Virus record (IMG/VR): IMGVR_UViG_2545824717_000010
Length of the DNA stretch: 23,357 nucleotides
Strand: one strand, 5' to 3'
Source: a virus
Lineage: Duplodnaviria; Heunggongvirae; Uroviricota; Caudoviricetes
This document shows, in pieces, positions 5,745 to 15,417 of this stretch. Both the position numbers and the translations under genes were made by a program. Position 1 is the first letter of the stretch, and each line of letters begins with the position of its first letter. Below the pieces are notes generated by a model. The model saw only the letters and a program-made list of their open reading frames with translations, did not search any database and had not been told where the DNA came from.

Positions 5745-8570
5745 ATGACGACAGAGTACATCAGGGACTGGCAACAACCGCGCCACGCAGTAGGACGTGA
5801 AGGAACGGAGATCCCCGCACCTGAATCCGCACTTTCCTCCTGGCTGGATGCCTACCGGGCAGAGAACGAGCGCCGCCAGGAAATGGCTGATGCGGCGTTC
5901 TCCGCCACGCCGCTGGGCAACCTGATTAATAAAAGCCTGGACGCACAGGAAAAACAGGACAAAACAATCACACTGGCAGGAGACGCCAGAAAACAGGCAC
6001 GCGGCGCGGTAGATGAGGCCATGGCCTCACTGCGCCTGCTGCCGTCCTATCTGCGCGATCCGCTTATTCGCCACCTCTCCTTCCTGCGCAAAAAACAGGA
6101 AGCCGATCGTCAGAAAGGAAAAAACGCCAGGCAGGCAGAACGCTATGCGCGTGGGACCCTGCGCAAAATATTCGAACGTCTGGAGCGCACCGATCACCGC
6201 TGGCTGACATCGGGTTATCGCTCCCTTGCCGGACGTGACCGCCTGGACGATTTGCTTTCCCTGCCGCAACTCAACAAACACCAGATACAGACGCTGGCCA
6301 CCATGACGGCGGCGATGTTCAGCAGCACCTTCGAAAAACTCTGCGATGGTTTTGGCGCGACTGATGGCGAGCTGACCATGGATGTAACGCTGAAGGTGTA
6401 TCAGATGCTGGCCCGCATGGCATTACATCTGCACACCATGCCGCCACATTATGACGCACTGACAACAGACAAAGACCGGAGGAACGAACCAGACACGGAG
6501 CTGCTGCCGGGCGCAATTCTTCGCCTGACCTGTGCGGAATGGTGGAAGCGCAAACTGTGGCTTTTACGTTGCGAGTGGCGGGAAGAACAACTCCGCGCCG
6601 CCTGTCTGGTTTCCAGAAAAACATCGCCCTATCTGAGCCAGGACGCGTTAAGCGAGTTTCGCGCACAGCGCGAGAAAACACGCGATTTCCTGAAAAGTTT
6701 CATGCTGGAAAACGAAGACGGGTTCACGATTGATCTCGAGACAGTGTATTACGCGGGAGTAAGTAACCCGGTTCACCGTAAGGCAGAAATGATGGCCACC
6801 ATGAAGGGGCTGGAACTTCTGGCCGAAGCCCGTGGCGACAAAGCGGTGTTTCTGACTGTCACCTGCCCGTCAAAATACCACGCCACAACAGAGAACGGTC
6901 ATCCGAATCCCAAATGGAACGGGGCCACCATGCGCGACTCCAGCGATTATCTGGTTAACACGTTTTTTGCGGCGGTCCGCAAAAAACTGAACCGCGACGG
7001 CCTGCGCTGGTATGGCATCCGCACGGTGGAGCCTCACCATGACGGCACCGTGCACTGGCATATGATGGTCTTTGCTCATCCGGAAGAAATCGACAGCATC
7101 GTGGCCATCACCCGCGATATTGCCATTCAGGAAGACCGCCACGAGCTGGGCAATGATATTACTCCGCGCTTTAAGGTGGAGTATGTCGACGGCTCAAAAG
7201 GCACACCAACCAGCTATATCGCGACCTACATCGGAAAAAACCTGGACAGCCGCGCCGTCGATGGCATCGACCCGAAAACGGGCAAGCCACGCGTTGACCA
7301 CGAAACCGGAAAATCAATGGCCGAGAGCGTGGAGCGCGCCATCGGCTGGGCGCGCCTTCACCGGGTCCGTCAGTTCCAGTTCTTTGGCATCCCCTCCCGT
7401 CAGGTGTGGCGTGAACTGCGCCGCCTTGCCAGCCAGATGGCACGCAATCCGGAAGGCCCGCAACGGCTGAAAGATGATGCAATGGATGCGGTACTCGCTG
7501 CCGCCGATGCCGGGTGTTTTGCCTCCTACATTGAAAAACAGGGTGGCGTGCTTGTTCCACGCAAGGACTACCTGATTCGCACCGCCTACGACCTCGCAGA
7601 TGAGCTGAACGATTACGGCGAACAGAGCGTACAGATTTACGGGATCTGGTCACCACTCATCGGGGAATCCTCCCGTGTGTGCACGCATCCGGATAACTGG
7701 AAGTTGGTAAGACGTAAACCAGAACCAGAAGACAACGCCCACGAAAATGGTTTTGACCTTCAGGGCGGCCCTGCCGCCCCTTGGACTCGTGGCAATAACT
7801 GTCCCCGTGTACAGGAAACAGGCAACAGCGGGACAGAACAGTCGAAAGAACGGCCAGCACCGTGGCCGCAGCTTCCTGACGGCGTTGAAGTGAACGAATG
7901 GATGCGCTCACTGAAACGGCACGAACGCCGGGCGCTGATGCGTTCGCTTCGTGACAAACAGGCAAAAAACAGCAGTGATGAAATGCAGAGCTGGACACAG
8001 AGCCGCAAACAGCAGCGGCCTTTGCCTGATAACCACGAATTACTCGCTAAAGAATGGCGGGAATCTGCCGAATCTCTCGGCCTGCATATCGGTGAACAGC
8101 AGATGCAGCACCTGTTACGGGGAGGCAGCCTGTACGTTGACGGCAGCATCATTGCACCGCAGGGATTTGAAATTGTACGCAAACCGGATACCCGCCCGGC
8201 CAGCCGAATCACGCAGCTCTGGCAGCGCCTGAGCCGTAATCACGGCGTAAGCAGCACAGAGATCCGTCATAACCCGGTCGCCAGCTATCTGGCACAGCTG
8301 GGGGCATCAGACCCCGAAGCCGCCGCACGTCTGGCATCCACACTTCAGCAGGACCAGAACACCATGAAAACCCCCGTTACCGTGCTTTCTGACATGCTGC
8401 GCGCCATCCGTGACGCAGAGCACGCACAAAGAATCAATGAAACCACTGAACGCGCCCGCCGCAAGGCTACTTTGCTCCAAAAGAGAGGCAAACAGCACTT
8501 TAGTAATCAAAATGATGATGAGAAAAAACAATTACAAAGTTGGATATGCCTTTTCCATCATGAGGGATGA
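5745..8570 (+). CDS. A: Replication initiation endonuclease (rolling-circle, HUH class), P2 gpA homolog with extended C-terminus
   Basis: 941 aa; HUH metal motif VHWHMMVF (about 7050..7080); tyrosine motif YIATYIGKN (about 7210..7236); position before the cargo locus as in P2. Longer than P2 A as recalled (about 760 aa). Confidence 0.85.
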   Translation: MTTEYIRDWQQPRHAVGREGTEIPAPESALSSWLDAYRAENERRQEMADAAFSATPLGNLINKSLDAQEKQDKTITLAGDARKQARGAVDEAMASLRLLPSYLRDPLIRHLSFLRKKQEADRQKGKNARQAERYARGTLRKIFERLERTDHRWLTSGYRSLAGRDRLDDLLSLPQLNKHQIQTLATMTAAMFSSTFEKLCDGFGATDGELTMDVTLKVYQMLARMALHLHTMPPHYDALTTDKDRRNEPDTELLPGAILRLTCAEWWKRKLWLLRCEWREEQLRAACLVSRKTSPYLSQDALSEFRAQREKTRDFLKSFMLENEDGFTIDLETVYYAGVSNPVHRKAEMMATMKGLELLAEARGDKAVFLTVTCPSKYHATTENGHPNPKWNGATMRDSSDYLVNTFFAAVRKKLNRDGLRWYGIRTVEPHHDGTVHWHMMVFAHPEEIDSIVAITRDIAIQEDRHELGNDITPRFKVEYVDGSKGTPTSYIATYIGKNLDSRAVDGIDPKTGKPRVDHETGKSMAESVERAIGWARLHRVRQFQFFGIPSRQVWRELRRLASQMARNPEGPQRLKDDAMDAVLAAADAGCFASYIEKQGGVLVPRKDYLIRTAYDLADELNDYGEQSVQIYGIWSPLIGESSRVCTHPDNWKLVRRKPEPEDNAHENGFDLQGGPAAPWTRGNNCPRVQETGNSGTEQSKERPAPWPQLPDGVEVNEWMRSLKRHERRALMRSLRDKQAKNSSDEMQSWTQSRKQQRPLPDNHELLAKEWRESAESLGLHIGEQQMQHLLRGGSLYVDGSIIAPQGFEIVRKPDTRPASRITQLWQRLSRNHGVSSTEIRHNPVASYLAQLGASDPEAAARLASTLQQDQNTMKTPVTVLSDMLRAIRDAEHAQRINETTERARRKATLLQKRGKQHFSNQNDDEKKQLQSWICLFHHEG

Positions 8571-8755: not shown

Positions 8756-9601
8756 ATGACAAAGCCTTCTCATTTTAGAACCCCTCTTCGTTATCCGGGA
8801 GGTAAGGCAAAATTCTTGCCACATATTGAACAAATACTCCGCAACAATGATCTCATTGGTGGATGTTATGCTGAACCTTATGCAGGTGGAGCCGGTGTAG
8901 CATTAGGTTTGCTCCTTAACGGTCTTGTTGAAAATATCTTCATAAATGATATTGATCCTGCCCTTTATTCTTTTTGGTTTGCAGTGGTTAATCATAACGA
9001 TCTGTTATGTGAAATGATTGATGAAGTTCCTGTGACTATTGAAAATTGGCATACTCAAAAGGAGATACTCCTAAACAATGATAAATATAGTATGCTTGAA
9101 GTCGCATTATCTACTTTCTTTTTAAATAGAACAAACCGTTCAGGAATACTTAAGGCTGGCGTTATTGGAGGGAAAGAACAAAAAGGACCATGGAAGTTAG
9201 ATGCAAGATTCAACAAAAAAGAGTTAATTAAAAGGATTGAACTAATTGGTGCATATAAGGAGAAAATTTACGTATCGAATTTTGATGCTGTAGATTTTCT
9301 GCTACACCAAAAAGCATTGCTACCCAAAAATAGTCTAATATATCTTGATCCACCTTATTATGTTAAAGGAGCAGAGTTATATAGAAATTTTTATAAACAT
9401 GATGATCATGTAAAAATCGCTAATACACTACGGGAAATTCAACTACCTTGGGTTGTGTCTTATGACAATGTGCCTGAAATAAAAAGCATATATCATGAAT
9501 TCAATATGACTGATTATACGCTTAATTATACTGCACAAGATAAGAAAAAAGGTCTAGAAATTATCATTTATAATCATGGTATAAAAATCCCTGACATTTA
9601 A
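8756..9601 (+). CDS. N6-adenine DNA methyltransferase, D12/Dam family (alpha class)
   Basis: 281 aa; N-terminal RYPGGK motif; SAM-binding motif I EPYAGGAGV (about 8870..8896); catalytic motif IV DPPY (9347..9358); markedly AT-rich versus flanks. Target sequence cannot be inferred. Confidence 0.85.
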   Translation: MTKPSHFRTPLRYPGGKAKFLPHIEQILRNNDLIGGCYAEPYAGGAGVALGLLLNGLVENIFINDIDPALYSFWFAVVNHNDLLCEMIDEVPVTIENWHTQKEILLNNDKYSMLEVALSTFFLNRTNRSGILKAGVIGGKEQKGPWKLDARFNKKELIKRIELIGAYKEKIYVSNFDAVDFLLHQKALLPKNSLIYLDPPYYVKGAELYRNFYKHDDHVKIANTLREIQLPWVVSYDNVPEIKSIYHEFNMTDYTLNYTAQDKKKGLEIIIYNHGIKIPDI

Positions 9602-9618
9602 ATTTAAGGATGATATAG

Positions 9619-11316
9619 ATGATTAAAGAAATTAGTTTTAAAAAATTTAAGAAACTGATAGATATTGACTTCTCATTCAATGAAGACATCAATATAATAT
9701 CAGGAACCAATGGGACATGTAAGACAACATTGCTTCATTTAATTAGCAATGGTTTCCAAATGCCACCATCTCGATCACAAAATTATTCAAATAGTAATTG
9801 TGTTAGAGTTATAAAATCTATAAACAAAATAGCCAACCCCAAAATGGAAGCAATTGTTAGGGAATCAAAAAATTACACCGATCCGGCAGAGGGAACAAAA
9901 GGTGTGTTATTTTCTATTAACTATTTGGATCATAGCACACTAGACTTCAGAAAGCACAACTCAAAAAATCCAGACGAAGCGCAACGGTATGCTATCAAAC
10001 CAGTATACCCACGCGGAAAAGAAAAACAATCACTTCCAGCTAAACCAGTTTTATATCTTGGATTATCGCGACTATTCCCAATTGGTGAAACTAAAGACGA
10101 CGCCCTTACAAAAATTCCGTTAAACCTACCAGAAGAGTATGTTGGTTATATATCGAAAATATATAATGAACTTTTGGGAATTAATATTATAAATATAGAA
10201 TCAAACAATATCGGTGATTTTAAAGCTGGCCCATTATTTGATACCGATAACCCAGCAATTGATTCTAATACCATATCATCCGGGGAAGACAATATATTCA
10301 TTATAATCAAGGCATTAGTTAGCCTTAGGTATTATTTTGAATCACTTATTCAATCCACTGATCAAAAAGAAAGCATTCTGTTAATAGATGAATTTGATGC
10401 CACTTTACATCCTTCTTTACAGATAAGATTATTAGATAAAATTTATCAATACGCAAAAGATTATAAGATTCAAGTATTTTTCACAACGCACAGTCTGACA
10501 TTGCTAGAGTATGCTTTTCATAAAAAATACCATGTTGTCTATCTAATTAACAATATTACAAAGGCTCTGCTTTTGGATAATCCTGATATATTAAAAATAA
10601 CAATGTATCTGAAAACACAAACAAAGGATGAGATATACACAAGGAACAAGATACCAGTTTTCACGGAAGATGAAGAAGCTCGCTTTTTATTTAATGAAAT
10701 ACTTGGTTATTGGATAAGCAAATATCCAAATTTTGCTATAGTTAGTAATTCATTTCACTTAATTGATTGTTTCATTGGTGCAGACAATTTAAAAACTATT
10801 TTTAATGATTCTCATCTTAAGGAAACCTCGTTAAAATCAATTTGTATTCTTGATGGAGATCACAGCCCTGAGGATCAGAGAGGAATTATATCACTGCCGG
10901 GTGAAAAAGCTCCAGAACAATTGATATTTGAGCATTGTGAGCACCTTTATAATACCGACGACTCTTCCTTCTGGGAAAATCAGGATATAATTAACAATGG
11001 TTTTTCGAAAGAGTTATACTTACTCAAGATACGTCCTCAATTACAATCAATTGAAACTGAAATTCAGAAAAGAAAAGACAACCATGAGTCTACATCCGGT
11101 TTAAGAAGAAGATTAAATAAGAAAATATTCAATCAGCATATTGAATTCTTTAGAATGATTACAAGAAACTGGTTAGACAAACCAGAAAATCAGAAATCTC
11201 TCCAGTATTTTTACAATGGATTACGATCCTTATTCTACCGGGTTACACCAACAAACGGCATTGACAGAAAAATTTGGGATTTTGACTATAACAAAATCAT
11301 TAAAGAGGATAAATAA
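9619..11316 (+). CDS. ABC-type ATPase fused to a TOPRIM-like nuclease domain (OLD/PARIS-like architecture)
   Basis: 565 aa; Walker A GTNGTCKTT (about 9703..9729); Walker B LLIDEFD (about 10381..10400); TTHS motif; C-terminal region with conserved Glu (VFTEDEEA, about 10654..10680) and DxD (ILDGDH, about 10846..10860) consistent with TOPRIM; starts 17 bp after the MTase stop; very AT-rich. Confidence 0.75.
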   Translation: MIKEISFKKFKKLIDIDFSFNEDINIISGTNGTCKTTLLHLISNGFQMPPSRSQNYSNSNCVRVIKSINKIANPKMEAIVRESKNYTDPAEGTKGVLFSINYLDHSTLDFRKHNSKNPDEAQRYAIKPVYPRGKEKQSLPAKPVLYLGLSRLFPIGETKDDALTKIPLNLPEEYVGYISKIYNELLGINIINIESNNIGDFKAGPLFDTDNPAIDSNTISSGEDNIFIIIKALVSLRYYFESLIQSTDQKESILLIDEFDATLHPSLQIRLLDKIYQYAKDYKIQVFFTTHSLTLLEYAFHKKYHVVYLINNITKALLLDNPDILKITMYLKTQTKDEIYTRNKIPVFTEDEEARFLFNEILGYWISKYPNFAIVSNSFHLIDCFIGADNLKTIFNDSHLKETSLKSICILDGDHSPEDQRGIISLPGEKAPEQLIFEHCEHLYNTDDSSFWENQDIINNGFSKELYLLKIRPQLQSIETEIQKRKDNHESTSGLRRRLNKKIFNQHIEFFRMITRNWLDKPENQKSLQYFYNGLRSLFYRVTPTNGIDRKIWDFDYNKIIKEDK

Positions 11317-11553
11317 TGTATTCTAATAGGATATAAACATCAAAGCTATATTTTTTACACATATCAAGAGTAAAAAATAATTTAACTTTTACATAACGAC
11401 CTCTTTTACAAATAAGTAGAAAAGGTCGTTATAACTCTCATCTCCATAGCATGTAATTTTCTTTGCATATTTTCACATAACAGTCAGGGATGTATTTATA
11501 AGCAACGTCGTATACATAGGCTCAATTTTTCTATAAATAAGCACTCCGTTCGG

Positions 11554-11583
11554 TTTGCACAATAGTGCACAAATTTGCACAAT
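11554..11583. repeat. Three tandem 10-bp direct repeats (TTTGCACAAT / AGTGCACAAA / TTTGCACAAT)
   Basis: Read directly; units 1 and 3 identical; one-helical-turn periodicity; located at the AT-rich to GC-rich transition on the right side of the cargo island. Confidence 0.6.
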
Positions 11584-11952
11584 TTTTTTGAACGACTTTT
11601 GCCCTTCCGGCCCGCATGGCGGCTGGATCCGTCAAGGATCCGTGCGTGCACAAAAAAACGCGCTTTTTCTGCGCGCAGGTGACGGGGGAACAGCCCGCGT
11701 TTCAGGGGGTAAATAGCATTCCCTGAACGATGTCGCAGAGACACAACAGAATGGCCATATTTCTCACGCTGAGCATGAAAAAGGCGTGAGGGCTTTTGAT
11801 TTGATGGGGTGAAAGGTAAGGCCGTCAAAATCGCACTGAGGCAGCGAGAACATACAGTCAACGCGGTGGAATTGCGTAAGAGTCTGACCGTCGATGGTGG
11901 CGATAAACTGGAAGGCGTCGTGAAATTATCTGATTGATACAGGAGCTGGAGA

Positions 11953-11981
11953 GCCGGGGCATAAATTTTTTATGCCCCGGC
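11953..11981. repeat. Perfect 13-bp inverted repeat GCCGGGGCATAAA-TTT-TTTATGCCCCGGC
   Basis: Read directly; no U-tract on either side, so not a canonical intrinsic terminator; about 100 bp upstream of the 12081 gene. Confidence 0.6.
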
Positions 11982-12080
11982 GAAGCAGCAGACAAGCGAA
12001 GCGCGTCAGCGATACGGCACCTTGCCGACCATACTTCATAAGTGCAAAATACGAGCAAAGAAATCAATGGAGGCTGTCTT

Positions 12081-12605
12081 ATGGTCATTAATTACAAGCA
12101 GTTAAGAGAAAAACGGGAGCAGGTAAAGGAGAGCTTTCGCCGCAATGAAGATCTGACCCCGCTTGTACGCCTTGCCCAGGGCATTGTTGATGCTTATGAA
12201 ATCTCGCTGGAGCTGCCATCACAGACCTGGACAGATAGCGACGGTAATCGCCAGCATTACGTTTCATGCGGACTGGAAGCAGCCGAAGGATTTCGCAGAA
12301 TGCCTTTATCCCAGATCCCTGCCGCTACCCCCAAAGCACGGGGCAGCAATGATGAGCGAAAACTGACTTTTAGTATTGAAACGGTGGTTGACGACACACC
12401 TGGCGAAGTCGCGTTCGTACACACTCCTGTTTCGATCGCAATGTATAACGATGAAATACAGGTTCGCGTTAATAATAATATCGTGCCACTTAAAGAAGGT
12501 AATTCACCCTACACCACCGTTTGTGAAGCCATTCAATATTACGTTCTCTCTGAAATTGATAATCTCAAGCCTGACGGCACCCAGAAAATGGTTCAACTCT
12601 GGTAA
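12081..12605 (+). CDS. Hypothetical protein (unassigned cargo gene between packaging region and portal gene)
   Basis: 174 aa from ATG at 12081 with RBS GGAGG 7 nt upstream (the track ORF starts at 12042 in the same frame); followed by an intrinsic terminator; no family recognised. Confidence 0.55.
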   Translation: MVINYKQLREKREQVKESFRRNEDLTPLVRLAQGIVDAYEISLELPSQTWTDSDGNRQHYVSCGLEAAEGFRRMPLSQIPAATPKARGSNDERKLTFSIETVVDDTPGEVAFVHTPVSIAMYNDEIQVRVNNNIVPLKEGNSPYTTVCEAIQYYVLSEIDNLKPDGTQKMVQLW

Positions 12606-12611
12606 AAAGGA

Positions 12612-12636
12612 CAGCCCCATCACGGGGCTGTTTTTT
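12612..12636. terminator. Bidirectional intrinsic terminator between convergent genes
   Basis: 7-bp GC stem CAGCCCC/GGGGCTG with 5-nt loop followed by TTTTTT on plus strand and by TTTTT on the minus strand (complement of AAAAA at 12604..12608); overlaps the Q stop codon. Confidence 0.7.
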
Positions 12637-13666
12637 CATCAAGAAGAGCATAAGAGTTAAAACGGATCACCTCTTCGCCAAGCCAGTCATTGATGTGCTT
12701 CATAGCCTCCATGACGGGCATCAGCTCGTTAATTGCGTAAACCCGCGCTGCCTTCTCCACATCGCCAAACGCACTTTTTTCGCCCGGCATCGCCCCCATC
12801 AGTTGCGGCGGAACGCGGTGCGCAGCCAGCACATCATCACGGGATGCCGCCTTAACATTCATGAATTCATCTTTTGCGGTGATCTGCTGGAACGGCAAAA
12901 TTTGCACCCCCTCTTTGCCCCCGTTGGGCGCATGAATGAGCACGTTTTTAAACGCACCACCACCACGTGCCCCCTGTAGCGTTTCTTTCAGGGAGTCCAT
13001 GCTTTCGCGGTTTACCTGCGCTGCACCGATGTAGATGATGCACCCGGCGTGGGATCCGTTGTCGTAGTACAGTTTTCTGAACATGTCCGCCGAATGAGAA
13101 AGGCTGGCCGAGAGTAATGCGCCAAGATATTCCGGCATGCCGTAGATTTCCTGGTTAATATCCGGATTCATCAGGTGGCACACTTTGCCAGGACGAAACT
13201 GAAACGCGTCCTTGCCATCCTGCACATACCACCATGATTCAAGATCGCTTCCGCGTCGCATGTATTTCGCCAGGGCGTGCCGTAATTTAAGCGGTTCGCC
13301 GAGCATATTGCTTCGAAGCTCAAGGAATGCGTTACCGAACACAAACCAGTCCAGCGCCAGCGCCGAGAAATCCTGCCGGGAAAGCAGCGGGTGCGGGATG
13401 TAGCAACCGAGTAATACATTGCGCTTAAAGTAAAGCGCAGACTGATGCCAGGACGTTTGCCGGGCAGCTCTTGCCAGACCGTACCAGTCCACCGGGGTTT
13501 CATACCACCGCCCGTTATCAGCACAGTACATATTGTCCAGCAGGTCATGCCCGGTCAGGCGATAAGGACCATCAAATGTGAATGCACTGAGCGATGATTC
13601 TTTCCTGAGCGCATCAGCGAGATCAATGCGTGAACTCATGCGCACTTTTTTATTTTTTCTGCTCAT
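12620..13666 (-). CDS. Q: Portal protein, P2 gpQ homolog
   Basis: 348 aa, similar length to P2 Q; position adjacent to the terminase gene; recalled sequence similarity. Confidence 0.85.
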   Translation of the reverse strand: MSRKNKKVRMSSRIDLADALRKESSLSAFTFDGPYRLTGHDLLDNMYCADNGRWYETPVDWYGLARAARQTSWHQSALYFKRNVLLGCYIPHPLLSRQDFSALALDWFVFGNAFLELRSNMLGEPLKLRHALAKYMRRGSDLESWWYVQDGKDAFQFRPGKVCHLMNPDINQEIYGMPEYLGALLSASLSHSADMFRKLYYDNGSHAGCIIYIGAAQVNRESMDSLKETLQGARGGGAFKNVLIHAPNGGKEGVQILPFQQITAKDEFMNVKAASRDDVLAAHRVPPQLMGAMPGEKSAFGDVEKAARVYAINELMPVMEAMKHINDWLGEEVIRFNSYALLDEKTAP

Positions 13667-15417
13667 CAGAACTCCATAACTGTGAAACGCTCGTTTTCTC
13701 CTTCGCCGCCAATTGGTTCGTTAATGACAGCAAGCATGGTTGCCCACGCAAGGTCGCCGTGGCTGATCCCCCTCGCGCGGTCCGTTTCGTAAGTGATAAA
13801 GCCGCCCGGTGTTTTCACCTTACGCACGGCGTTAAAGGCTGCGACCAGCTCGCGTTCGGCGCGATCGTATTCCCACCGCCCGGCACGCATTATTTGCAGC
13901 ATTTTCAGTACCAGCGACCGTTTTGATGACAGCGTGAAGGTGTACGGAATAGCAGCAGGGAAAAACCGTTTCACTATCTGATAAACAGCCTCCCCGTTCC
14001 CGCCCGTCACATCAATGCCGATGTGTTCCACGTTGTAGCGACACGTGAACTCTTCAATGACTCTGGCCTGTTCTTCAAACTCCAGCCCCTGAACGCGTCG
14101 CGTCTCCACCGTTCGAAAACGGCCACCAGGAACAGACGGAGGAACCACCACGGACACAGCGCCGCTGTCGCCGTTGCCACTGCTGCCGTTTGCGTCATAC
14201 CCAATCCATACCGGACGATTCCCCATCGGGCGGGGAGCAAAAGGTTTCCAGTCTTTCCAGTCGTCGTATCCGTCAACGCCGCAGCCAATCAGGATATTCA
14301 GGTTAAATGCCGATTCCCCTTCGCGGACAAACTCACACATGTAGAGATTGAGGAACTCGTCTTCGGTGTTTTCATCGCGGATTTCGTCAATATCGGTGTG
14401 TTTCCAGCCGTGATTAACCACATCTTCCAGCGTGACAATCTGCCGCCATGTCCGGTCAGGGCAGATAAGTCCGTTATGCAGCGTTTTCCAGTCCACAGAA
14501 AAACGCTGGCGTTTATGCGAGGCCTTTTTCTCGTTCCAGCGGTCGCCGTTCCAGTAGGCGTATGCCTCGTGCGTTTCGGTGGATGGCGTGGAGAAGTAGG
14601 TGCGCCGCAGTCCGCTGAGGGTTGCCATAGCGCCAGCCACCTTGCGCAGTTCAGCAAAGCGACTGACCCAGAAAAATTCATCAAAATAAAAATTGCCCGT
14701 ATAGGACTGTGCCGACGCAGCAGAAGTGCCGAGAAAATGCAGCTCTGCGCCGTTGGAGAGGATGATTTTATCGCCCCCTTTCAGCTCCACATCAACTTCA
14801 GCCGCGGCCTTCTGAATAATGCTTTTAAACTGGAACGCCTGACGACGCGACGCAGACAAAAAAATCTGGTTACGCTGGTAAGGTTGCGCCACATCGTCAC
14901 GCAGCGCCATCAGCAGCGCTTCCTGTGCAAAATACCAGGTCGCCCCAATCTGTCGGGATTTCAGGATCATCCTGTTACGTATCCCGGCTTCCCTGCAAAG
15001 GGTCAGGGAGTCAAACCAGCCCCGCTGATGCCACTCCAGCCTGCTGATGATTTTTTCCCGCAGTGCGGCAATCTGTTCCGGCGTGAAATGATTTTTGAGT
15101 TTTTTCGCCCGGCCTTTCTTTCCTGCGGCCATCACATCCGGCTGGCCATCATGCAGCTTTTTAAGCTGCCGGGTCAGCAGGTCTATTTCCTTAAAGTCAC
15201 CGCCTGTTTTATTCTGTTTTTCAGTAAGCTGGATGAGGCGCGCATCAATGGACTGCGTGACACGCTGCACGGGTGGCGTTTCATCCCACTGGTCGCGTTT
15301 TTTCCACGCATAAATCGTGTTCGGGTTTATTCCCATCAGACGTGATATTTCTGCGGGCGGATAACCCTGCCAGTAAAGTTGCCGCGCACGCTGGCGCACA
15401 AAAGCGTCCTGAATCAT
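13666..15417 (-). CDS. P: Terminase large (ATPase) subunit, P2 gpP homolog
   Basis: 583 aa; N-terminal MIQDAFVRQRARQLYWQGYPPAEISRLMGI matches P2 P as recalled; divergent from the O operon. Confidence 0.9.
   Translation of the reverse strand: MIQDAFVRQRARQLYWQGYPPAEISRLMGINPNTIYAWKKRDQWDETPPVQRVTQSIDARLIQLTEKQNKTGGDFKEIDLLTRQLKKLHDGQPDVMAAGKKGRAKKLKNHFTPEQIAALREKIISRLEWHQRGWFDSLTLCREAGIRNRMILKSRQIGATWYFAQEALLMALRDDVAQPYQRNQIFLSASRRQAFQFKSIIQKAAAEVDVELKGGDKIILSNGAELHFLGTSAASAQSYTGNFYFDEFFWVSRFAELRKVAGAMATLSGLRRTYFSTPSTETHEAYAYWNGDRWNEKKASHKRQRFSVDWKTLHNGLICPDRTWRQIVTLEDVVNHGWKHTDIDEIRDENTEDEFLNLYMCEFVREGESAFNLNILIGCGVDGYDDWKDWKPFAPRPMGNRPVWIGYDANGSSGNGDSGAVSVVVPPSVPGGRFRTVETRRVQGLEFEEQARVIEEFTCRYNVEHIGIDVTGGNGEAVYQIVKRFFPAAIPYTFTLSSKRSLVLKMLQIMRAGRWEYDRAERELVAAFNAVRKVKTPGGFITYETDRARGISHGDLAWATMLAVINEPIGGEGENERFTVMEF

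What the first reader, a model, noticed from the sequence alone, without database searches (positions are those of the whole stretch)
12081..12636. Unassigned gene with its own RBS and bidirectional terminator wedged between the packaging region and the portal gene
Seen: a 174-aa ORF with GGAGG RBS, convergent with Q and ending in a clean stem-loop plus T-tract (12612..12636). As I recall P2, Q lies directly beside cos with no gene in between, so this looks like an additional cargo slot. I recognise no family or motif in the protein.
Basis: partly seen in the sequence, partly recalled or inferred. Interest (0 to 1): 0.5.

Follow-up and report, generated by a model that had tools for sequence, protein, structure and literature searches.

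The report
Optional one-gene cassette beside phage portal
This is a real but optional extra gene of unknown function, carried by about a third of one group of P2-type E. coli prophages between the DNA-packaging site and the portal gene; it lies in an already known variable region and is an ordinary phage add-on gene, worth testing for a role in phage defence or counter-defence.

Summary
A 174-codon ORF (12081-12605, +) has a GGAGG ribosome-binding site 7 nt upstream. It ends in a strong hairpin with T-runs on both strands (12606-12637) and is convergent with portal gene Q.

It is a real gene: dN/dS is about 0.09, and it matches phrog_5091 (unknown function) over its full length at E = 1e-67. 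The window is a P88-like (Xuanwuvirus) P2-family prophage.

The gene sits in a 636-bp cassette (12010-12645) that is missing from P88 and P88_4B11. Of 1145 complete E. coli genomes with this junction, 396 carry the gene and 766 have an empty site. Presence is independent of the cargo on the gpA side. The cassette also supplies the last eight codons and the stop codon of Q.

Distant relatives (22-33% identity) sit in typical add-on slots of other Enterobacterales prophages. Six are just upstream of the holin in lambdoid phages, three are inside myophage tail modules, and one is just after gpA.

Nothing matched in Pfam, NCBIfam, PADLOC, PDB or BFVD. Rousset et al. 2022 already list the protein as "hypothetical" in the gpA-gpQ hotspot.

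Verdict: a non-essential single-gene moron. I infer a role in phage conflict, acting by binding a partner; this is not shown. Low to moderate interest.

The parts
12010..12645 (+). Whole cassette (636 bp) that is present or absent among P88-like phages
   Evidence: Alignment with P88 and P88_4B11. Junction sequences: homology ends after GCGCGTCAG (12001-12009) and resumes at about 12646. No flanking direct repeats.
12010..12068 (+). 5' leader of the cassette, with a candidate weak sigma-70 promoter: TTGCCG 12022-12027, 17-nt spacer, CAAAAT 12045-12050 (8 of 12 matches)
   Evidence: Read from the sequence. It falls below the scan threshold of 9 of 12, so this is inference only.
12069..12073 (+). 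Shine-Dalgarno sequence GGAGG, 7 nt before the ATG
12081..12605 (+). CDS of 174 aa: a soluble, mildly acidic (pI 5.0) alpha+beta protein of family phrog_5091
12606..12637 (.). Bidirectional intrinsic terminator. It ends the cassette gene and very probably the convergent P-Q late transcript.
12620..12646 (-). Last eight codons plus stop of portal gene Q (LLDEKTAP*), supplied by the cassette. P88 has LLDTQPTS*.
12006..12008 (-). Sequence corresponding to the Q stop codon of the empty-site version (TCA = TGA on the - strand); in this phage it lies upstream of the cassette
12620..13666 (-). Context: portal gene Q
   Evidence: PF04860; annotated in relatives.
11556..12009 (.). Context: conserved non-coding block that holds the probable cos site (about 11556-11699), a conserved 42-codon ORF (11809-11937) and a perfect 13-bp hairpin (11953-11981)

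Best explanation
The feature is a single-gene moron, an optional self-contained cassette. It consists of a leader with a possible weak promoter, a Shine-Dalgarno site, a 174-codon gene and a bidirectional terminator. It is inserted into the extreme 3' end of portal gene Q, on the Q side of cos, in about 30-35% of P88-like P2-family prophages of E. coli.

Shown:
- The gene is protein-coding and under purifying selection.
- It is dispensable for making virions, because isolated phages lack it.
- It varies independently of the gpA-side cargo and has no constant partner gene.
- Its terminator sits where the convergent Q-P late transcript ends.

Inferred: the product is a small cytoplasmic alpha+beta protein. 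Conservation lies mostly in core aromatic and hydrophobic residues, and there is no catalytic motif. It therefore most likely acts by binding another protein rather than as an enzyme, and serves the phage or lysogen in conflict with other phages or with host immunity.

Within that, I slightly favour a prophage-expressed exclusion or defence function, because the cassette is autonomous and flanked by terminators in P2-like and lambdoid relatives and lies in a defence-rich interval. Counter-defence is the main rival. The biochemical target is unknown.
For: Presence or absence at one point in otherwise collinear phages:
- P88 and P88_4B11 lack the gene.
- 396 E. coli genomes are occupied and 766 have an empty junction, out of 1145 with the junction.
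- In all 41 IMG/VR loci the order is cos block, gene, then portal; in the 39 P88-like ones the cos block lies about 62-68 bp upstream and the portal 14 bp downstream.

Real gene: dN/dS is 0.09, against 0.024 for the portal. The 60-63% identical Salmonella homologues have the same architecture next to a 74% identical portal.

Independent of the gpA-side cargo: only 2 of 41 loci share the methylase plus ATPase cargo. That cargo also occurs with an empty junction in NZ_CP032204.

Cassette character elsewhere:
- All four lambdoid relatives scanned have their own intrinsic terminator between the gene and the holin.
- Relatives sit in add-on slots of unrelated phage types.

Soluble, no known domain: pI 5.0, no hydrophobic segment. 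AF2 model pLDDT 80, pTM 0.73. No Pfam, NCBIfam or PADLOC hit.

The interval is a published defence hotspot (PMC9122126; PMC13586616).
Against: - No promoter reaches the scan threshold. Expression in the lysogen is not shown.
- GC content is 0.47, close to the phage core (0.52-0.54) and unlike the AT-rich defence cargo next door (0.32-0.34).
- The site is empty-or-occupied, and the gene has co-diverged with the portal between E. coli and Salmonella. This differs from the fast swapping typical of defence cargo.
- One Serratia relative overlaps the upstream baseplate gene by 4 nt, which suggests late co-expression with structural genes and so a lytic-cycle role.
- There is no homology or fold match to any defence or anti-defence protein.
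Confidence: 0.55

Rival explanations
1. Counter-defence. The protein is made for the phage's own benefit during lytic growth and neutralises a host or rival-prophage immune component by binding it. One example would be sensors triggered by late proteins such as portal, terminase or tail proteins.
For: - It is small, acidic, without a known domain, and has a fold with no solved relative.
- Six lambdoid relatives lie between the late antiterminator and the holin, so they would be transcribed with the late operon.
- Three relatives lie inside tail or baseplate modules, one with a 4-nt overlap to the upstream gene.
- GC content is near the phage core.
- The gene has a long association with the portal across E. 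coli and Salmonella lineages.
Against: - In this window it is convergent to the late Q-P operon, not co-transcribed with it, and is sealed off by a terminator.
- Counter-defence genes usually act early.
- Very few anti-defence genes are detected in P2-like phages (PMC13586616).
- There is no similarity to any known inhibitor.
Confidence: 0.25
2. Lysogenic conversion unrelated to phages. The protein alters host physiology or fitness, or is released on lysis, as cargo at the Q-holin position of Stx phages is.
For: The cassette is autonomous. Six relatives occupy the position between antiterminator and holin, where Stx phages carry toxin genes (position of the toxin genes is from general knowledge; contexts are). 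The gene is common in human-derived E. coli isolates among the rows listed.
Against: There is no signal peptide or membrane segment and no toxin, enzyme or regulator domain. Nothing links the gene to virulence. Host-source bias was not tested.
Confidence: 0.1
3. Packaging or head-assembly accessory. Because it lies beside cos, portal and terminase, the protein helps cos recognition or portal function.
For: Position only. Two divergent family members (22% identity) have been inserted at two different points of the same 400-bp cos-Q spacer.
Against: - It is absent from isolated P88-type phages (P88, P88_4B11), from P2, and from the prophages in 766 genomes.
- Most relatives sit far from packaging genes, next to the holin or in tail modules.
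- It is convergent to Q-P.
Confidence: 0.04
4. It is a component of the neighbouring gpA-side system (Dam-type methylase plus 565-aa ATPase at 8756-11316).
For: Both lie in the same gpA-gpQ interval and on the same strand.
Against: 39 of 41 loci that carry the gene have other gpA-side cargo. The methylase plus ATPase pair is in only 14 E. coli genomes, against 396 with the gene, and occurs with an empty Q-side junction. The conserved cos block and a hairpin lie between them.
Confidence: 0.02

Closest known systems
Morons of temperate phages (Hendrix/Juhala sense): single extra genes with their own transcription signals inserted between core genes
   Same: It is present or absent at one point in otherwise collinear genomes. 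It has its own RBS and intrinsic terminator and is non-essential. Family members are scattered over different slots in unrelated phages.
   Different: A promoter is not shown. Its base composition differs only slightly from the flanks. Unusually, the insertion overlaps and rewrites the last codons of an essential gene (portal).
Cargo of the P2 cos-proximal gpA-gpQ hotspot (old/tin locus; Rousset et al. 2022, PMC9122126)
   Same: It lies between gpA and gpQ next to cos. The protein (WP_000236495) is listed in that paper's Table S5 as the last 'hypothetical' gene of many arrangements.
   Different: It sits on the Q side of cos, whereas old and tin lie on the other side. This sub-site is either empty or occupied rather than carrying many alternative cargos. 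No anti-phage activity is known for it, and it matches no PADLOC model.
P2 Tin and similar single-protein prophage exclusion factors
   Same: A single small soluble protein encoded in the same interval of a P2-type prophage. Such factors act by binding a protein of the incoming phage (for Tin, this is from general knowledge).
   Different: There is no sequence similarity, and nothing shows exclusion activity here.
phrog_5091 (PHROGs v4, unknown function)
   Same: Full-length match, E = 1.4e-67. All 36 aligned relatives match the same family.
   Different: None: it is a member. The family has no known function or structure.
NTF2-like / cystatin-like alpha+beta cone folds

Membership tests
Moron (autonomous extra gene in a phage genome) | Present in some and absent from other closely related, collinear genomes at the same point | tested here: met
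   396 occupied versus 766 empty E. coli genomes; P88 and P88_4B11 are empty.
Moron (autonomous extra gene in a phage genome) | Own transcription terminator | tested here: met
   Also met in Salmonella homologues and in four lambdoid relatives.
Moron (autonomous extra gene in a phage genome) | Own promoter, with expression from the repressed prophage | tested here: inconclusive
   No site reaches 9 of 12 matches in 12010-12080. There is only an 8-of-12 candidate read by eye. Expression cannot be tested with these tools.
Moron (autonomous extra gene in a phage genome) | Base composition distinct from neighbours | tested here: inconclusive
   GC is 0.47, against 0.52 (cos block) and 0.53 (portal).
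P2 gpA-gpQ hotspot cargo (Rousset 2022) | Located between gpA and gpQ of a P2-like prophage | tested here: met
   gpA is 5745-8570 and Q is 12620-13666. The protein is listed in Table S5 of PMC9122126.
P2 gpA-gpQ hotspot cargo (Rousset 2022) | High turnover: many alternative gene sets at the same site | tested here: not met
   At this junction, 766 empty plus 396 occupied genomes account for about all 1145. The only alternative seen is another member of the same family, about 70 nt upstream, in 29-31 genomes.
P2 gpA-gpQ hotspot cargo (Rousset 2022) | Anti-phage activity | not testable with these tools
   The accession was not found in any supplementary file other than Table S5, including Table S2 of tested systems. 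No paper was found for the accession.
Known anti-phage defence proteins (PADLOC-DB 2.0) | Match to a defence-system HMM | tested here: not met
   0 hits for the protein. One hit among 36 relatives, at E = 0.009.
phrog_5091 | Significant full-length HMM match | tested here: met
   E = 1.4e-67, residues 1-168 on profile positions 1-164 of 164. 36 of 36 relatives match.
Core structural or packaging gene of P2-like phages | Conserved at this position in all members | tested here: not met
   Absent in P2, in P88 and P88_4B11, and in most E. coli P88-like prophages. Found in only 4 of 50,697 phage records.
NTF2-like fold superfamily | Significant structural superposition on members | tested here: inconclusive

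The most novel reading that the evidence does not exclude
phrog_5091 could be a new single-protein family of phage-conflict effectors (exclusion or counter-defence) with a fold not yet seen in solved structures. It has been captured at least four separate times in the gpA-gpQ interval of P2-type phages, twice in the 400-bp cos-portal spacer. In this reading its activity is tied to late or packaging proteins, for example by masking portal or terminase from immune sensors, or by interfering with P4-type satellites that use the same cos site and capsids.
Probability: 0.12. Interest if true: 0.6.

Novelty: new member of a known kind. Interest (0 to 1): 0.3.

Why it matters
The exact protein is common. 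It is in 396 of 5426 complete E. coli genomes and was seen on at least 1000 contigs, yet it has no assigned function, no domain and no structural relative.

It lies in the best-studied defence hotspot of P2-type prophages, where untested genes of unknown function may hide anti-phage activities: in the parallel P4 satellite hotspot, 6 of 8 such unannotated loci tested protected against phages (PMC13586616). That makes it a cheap, well-defined candidate for a defence and counter-defence screen.

The finding also shows two smaller points:
- The Q-side edge of cos behaves as a separate two-state site that varies independently of the gpA-side cargo.
- The portal tolerates replacement of its last residues by a sequence that doubles as a terminator.

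Neither point changes current understanding.

Tried and rejected
Searches with no informative result:
- Pfam, NCBIfam and PADLOC, on the protein and on 36 relatives.
- PDB sequence profile search: best E = 0.07, on a helical stretch of EMC2.
- Foldseek against PDB and BFVD: nothing at E <= 0.001.
- Foldseek against afdb50: library not available.
- Rfam on 11200-12800: no hit.
- Literature searches for the RefSeq and UniProt accessions and the PHROG number: none found.
- A search on Xuanwuvirus/P88 found nothing relevant.

Rejected ideas:
- Partner of the methylase plus ATPase cargo. The two are distributed independently.
- Structural or packaging gene. It is absent from viable phages.
- Transposition-type insertion. 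There are no flanking direct or inverted repeats.
- The longer GTG 12042 start. It is not conserved.

Uninformative tests:
- A search for the P2 late-promoter dyad TGT-N12-ACA gave 2 matches in the window against 5 expected by chance, and none upstream of the gene.
- P2's own cos has no detectable similarity to this phage's cos block, so cos could not be placed by homology to P2.
- The genome-collection scan with the 36-sequence alignment failed for lack of a conserved stretch. The 12-sequence subset found only two Xenorhabdus loci.

Full report
**1. What is in the sequence**

The window is a P2-family prophage of the P88 type (Xuanwuvirus, Peduoviridae).
- The region 11553-12700 is 99.5% identical to Escherichia phages PhiR44_2, vB_EcoM-569R5 and 705R2 and to an ST131 P88-type phage.
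- gpA (5745-8570), portal Q (12620-13666, -) and terminase P (13666-15417, -) are collinear with P88.

- It runs from ATG 12081 to TAA 12603-12605, 174 codons. GGAGG lies at 12069-12073, 7 nt upstream.
- The longest-ORF listing starts at GTG 12042. All homologues start MVINY, and the deposited annotations use the 525-nt version.
- The gene ends in a hairpin with arms 12606-12618 and 12624-12636. It folds at -21.3 kcal/mol on the + strand (z = -4.9, 0 of 200 shuffles as good) and -17.4 kcal/mol on the - strand (z = -3.8). T-runs follow on both strands, so 'bidirectional terminator' is a fair description.
- The portal stop codon (12620-12622) lies in the loop of this hairpin.

**2. It is a real gene**

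- Among 24 distinct nucleotide alleles from related loci, dN/dS is about 0.09 (mean dN 0.012, dS 0.136). The adjacent portal gives 0.024.
- The protein matches phrog_5091 (unknown function) over its full length at E = 1.4e-67.
- The exact sequence is seen on at least 1000 public contigs, always named 'hypothetical'.

**3. It is an optional cassette**

Boundaries and what the cassette replaces:
- P88 and P88_4B11 lack the gene. Homology with them ends after GCGCGTCAG (12001-12009) and resumes near 12646.
- The cassette is therefore 12010-12645, 636 bp.
- The TCA at 12006-12008 corresponds to the Q stop codon of the empty-site version.
- In occupied genomes the cassette supplies the last eight Q codons and a new stop: LLDEKTAP* instead of LLDTQPTS*. 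EKTAP* is the reverse complement of the terminator's 3' arm and T-tract.
- No direct or inverted repeats flank the cassette.

Distribution:
- 1145 of 5426 complete E. coli genomes have this junction. Of these, 396 carry the gene and 766 have at least one empty junction. The site is essentially two-state.
- In all 41 IMG/VR loci that carry the gene the order is cos block, gene, then convergent portal. In the 39 P88-like ones the cos block lies about 62-68 bp upstream and the portal 14 bp downstream.
- Only 2 of the 41 share this window's gpA-side cargo.
- That cargo is a Dam-type methylase plus a 565-aa ATPase. It is found in only 14 E. coli genomes and also occurs with an empty Q-side junction. 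The gene is therefore independent of it.

**4. Position relative to cos**

- The only conserved non-coding block between the variable gpA-side cargo and Q is 11556-12009.
- The linear P88_4B11 record has its ends at window 11599/11600.
- The sub-block 11556-11699 is shared at 75% with Enterobacter phage phiT5282H.
- I therefore place cos at about 11556-11699, with the gene on its Q side. The cut site itself is not shown, and P2's cos has no detectable similarity.
- In P2, nothing but terminator tQ lies between cosL and Q. old and tin are on the other side of cos.

**5. The wider family**

- A profile search of 1.84 billion representatives found 89 proteins, 23 of them below E = 1e-10. Most are 155-175 aa and 22-33% identical.
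- They share the motifs AY..SL.LP...W.D..G...YV..G, TV(I/V)DD.P.GG and VC..IK. All 36 aligned relatives match phrog_5091.

Their contexts are all prophages of Enterobacterales:

| Context | Where |
|---|---|
| P2-like, convergent to the portal, own hairpin terminator | Salmonella, 60-63% identity |
| P2-like, about 70 nt further from Q, upstream of the conserved hairpin | E. coli, 29-31 genomes, 22% identity (hhalign 98.4%) |
| P2-like, directly after gpA | Trabulsiella, 46% identity |
| Lambdoid, between late antiterminator and holin (six distinct cases) | Yersinia, Klebsiella, Xenorhabdus, metagenomic contigs |
| Tail or baseplate module of E217-like myophages (three different points) | Xenorhabdus, Serratia; one with a 4-nt overlap to the upstream gene |

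- In the four lambdoid cases scanned, an intrinsic terminator follows the gene and precedes the holin.
- No neighbouring gene recurs, so this is a one-gene module.
- Only 4 of 50,697 phage records carry a family member.

**6. The protein**

- It is soluble (maximum 19-residue hydropathy 0.86) and mildly acidic: pI 5.0, and relatives range from 4.3 to 6.3.
- The AlphaFold2 model has pLDDT 80 and pTM 0.73. It shows two N-terminal helices, a curved antiparallel sheet of about eight strands and a C-terminal helix.
- Foldseek against PDB and BFVD gives nothing at E <= 0.001. afdb50 was unavailable.
- There are no Pfam, NCBIfam, PADLOC or PDB sequence matches.
- Family-wide invariant positions are mostly aromatic or hydrophobic (Y39, L43, W50, T101). 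The DD pair is not invariant. This fits a binding scaffold better than an enzyme, but that is inference.

**7. How it most likely works**

Shown: it is a non-essential, self-contained cassette with its own RBS and a terminator placed where the convergent late Q-P transcript ends. The same hairpin should therefore end both transcripts and insulate them from each other.

Not shown: a promoter. Only an 8-of-12 sigma-70 candidate exists (TTGCCG 12022-12027, 17-nt spacer, CAAAAT 12045-12050), which is below the scan threshold.

Inferred: the protein acts by binding a partner in phage-phage or phage-host conflict.
- For lysogen-expressed exclusion or defence: the autonomous terminator-flanked cassette, and a position in a published defence hotspot (PMC9122126; PMC13586616).
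- For counter-defence: late-operon positions in other phages, GC content near the phage core (0.47 against 0.32-0.34 for the neighbouring defence-like cargo), a two-state rather than many-cargo site, and co-divergence with the portal.
- I put about 0.3-0.35 on exclusion or defence, 0.25 on counter-defence, 0.1 on another conversion function and below 0.05 on a packaging role.

**8. Comparison with what is known**

- The interval gpA-gpQ is the known cos-proximal hotspot of P2-like phages.
- Rousset et al. list this very protein (WP_000236495) 167 times as 'hypothetical' at the end of arrangements. It appears in no other supplementary file of that paper, including the table of tested systems.
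- No paper mentions the accession, the UniProt entry or the PHROG.
- The finding is thus a new, uncharacterised member of a known kind: a moron, or hotspot cargo.
- The modest new details are the independent two-state Q-side sub-site, the terminator embedded in the portal's last codons, and repeated capture of the same family in the cos-Q spacer.

**9. Verdict**

The gene is ordinary in kind and its function is open. Interest is 0.3.

Noticed in passing
window 8756-11316: The gpA-side cargo is a Dam-family adenine methylase (281 aa; TIGR00571 E = 1.7e-19, below cutoff) plus a 565-aa AAA_15/AAA_21 ATPase. The ATPase matches phrog_3940 and has weak PtuA/AriA/GajA/MAD3-like hits. GC is 0.32-0.34 against 0.50 for the window. 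This looks like a two-gene defence candidate. It is found in only 14 complete E. coli genomes and has only a trace of similarity to P2 Old.
   Followed up: partly
window 12620-12646 (- strand): The portal's last residues differ with the state of the site: LLDEKTAP* here and LLDTQPTS* in P88. In Salmonella relatives they are LLEEK* or LLEENKTGLYL*. In the occupied versions the stop codon lies in or next to the terminator of the convergent gene. The extreme C-terminus of gpQ seems freely replaceable.
   Followed up: partly
L004 3243-3953 (NZ_OY754371); equivalent to window about 11937-11953: A 22%-identical member of the same family (hhalign probability 98.4%) is inserted at a different point of the cos-Q spacer, upstream of the conserved hairpin. 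It is annotated as fused in frame to the conserved 42-codon ORF and is present in 29-31 E. coli genomes.
   Followed up: partly
window 11809-11937 and 11953-11981: A 42-codon ORF and a perfect 13-bp-arm hairpin (-31.6 kcal/mol, z = -7.4, no T-run on either strand) are conserved in all P88-type phages, with or without the cassette. Their role is unknown; a remnant Q terminator, a packaging element or a small gene are possibilities.
   Followed up: no
window 11556-11699: The P88-type cos block has no detectable similarity to the P2 cos region but is 75% identical to a stretch of Enterobacter phage phiT5282H. It contains three GCACAA-type repeats and a terminator-like site at 11565-11580 right after the variable cargo.
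   Followed up: partly
window 11731-11748: TGTCGCAGAGACACAACA matches the TGT-N12-ACA dyad of P2 late promoters, about 60 nt upstream of the 42-codon ORF. It is one of only 2 matches in the window, but about 5 are expected by chance, so it is not significant.
   Followed up: no
L049 8001-8498 (Serratia marcescens AP028497); L047 5968-6498; L065 6001-6477 (Xenorhabdus): Family members sit at three different points inside the tail or baseplate module of E217-like myophages. In L049 the start overlaps the preceding hub-like gene by 4 nt, which suggests translational coupling with structural genes.
   Followed up: partly
L045 912-1437: The Salmonella homologue in this viral contig aligns over only 126 residues and appears frameshifted around 'GAAAAATACCGTCCCCC', so it may be a pseudogene copy.
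   Followed up: no
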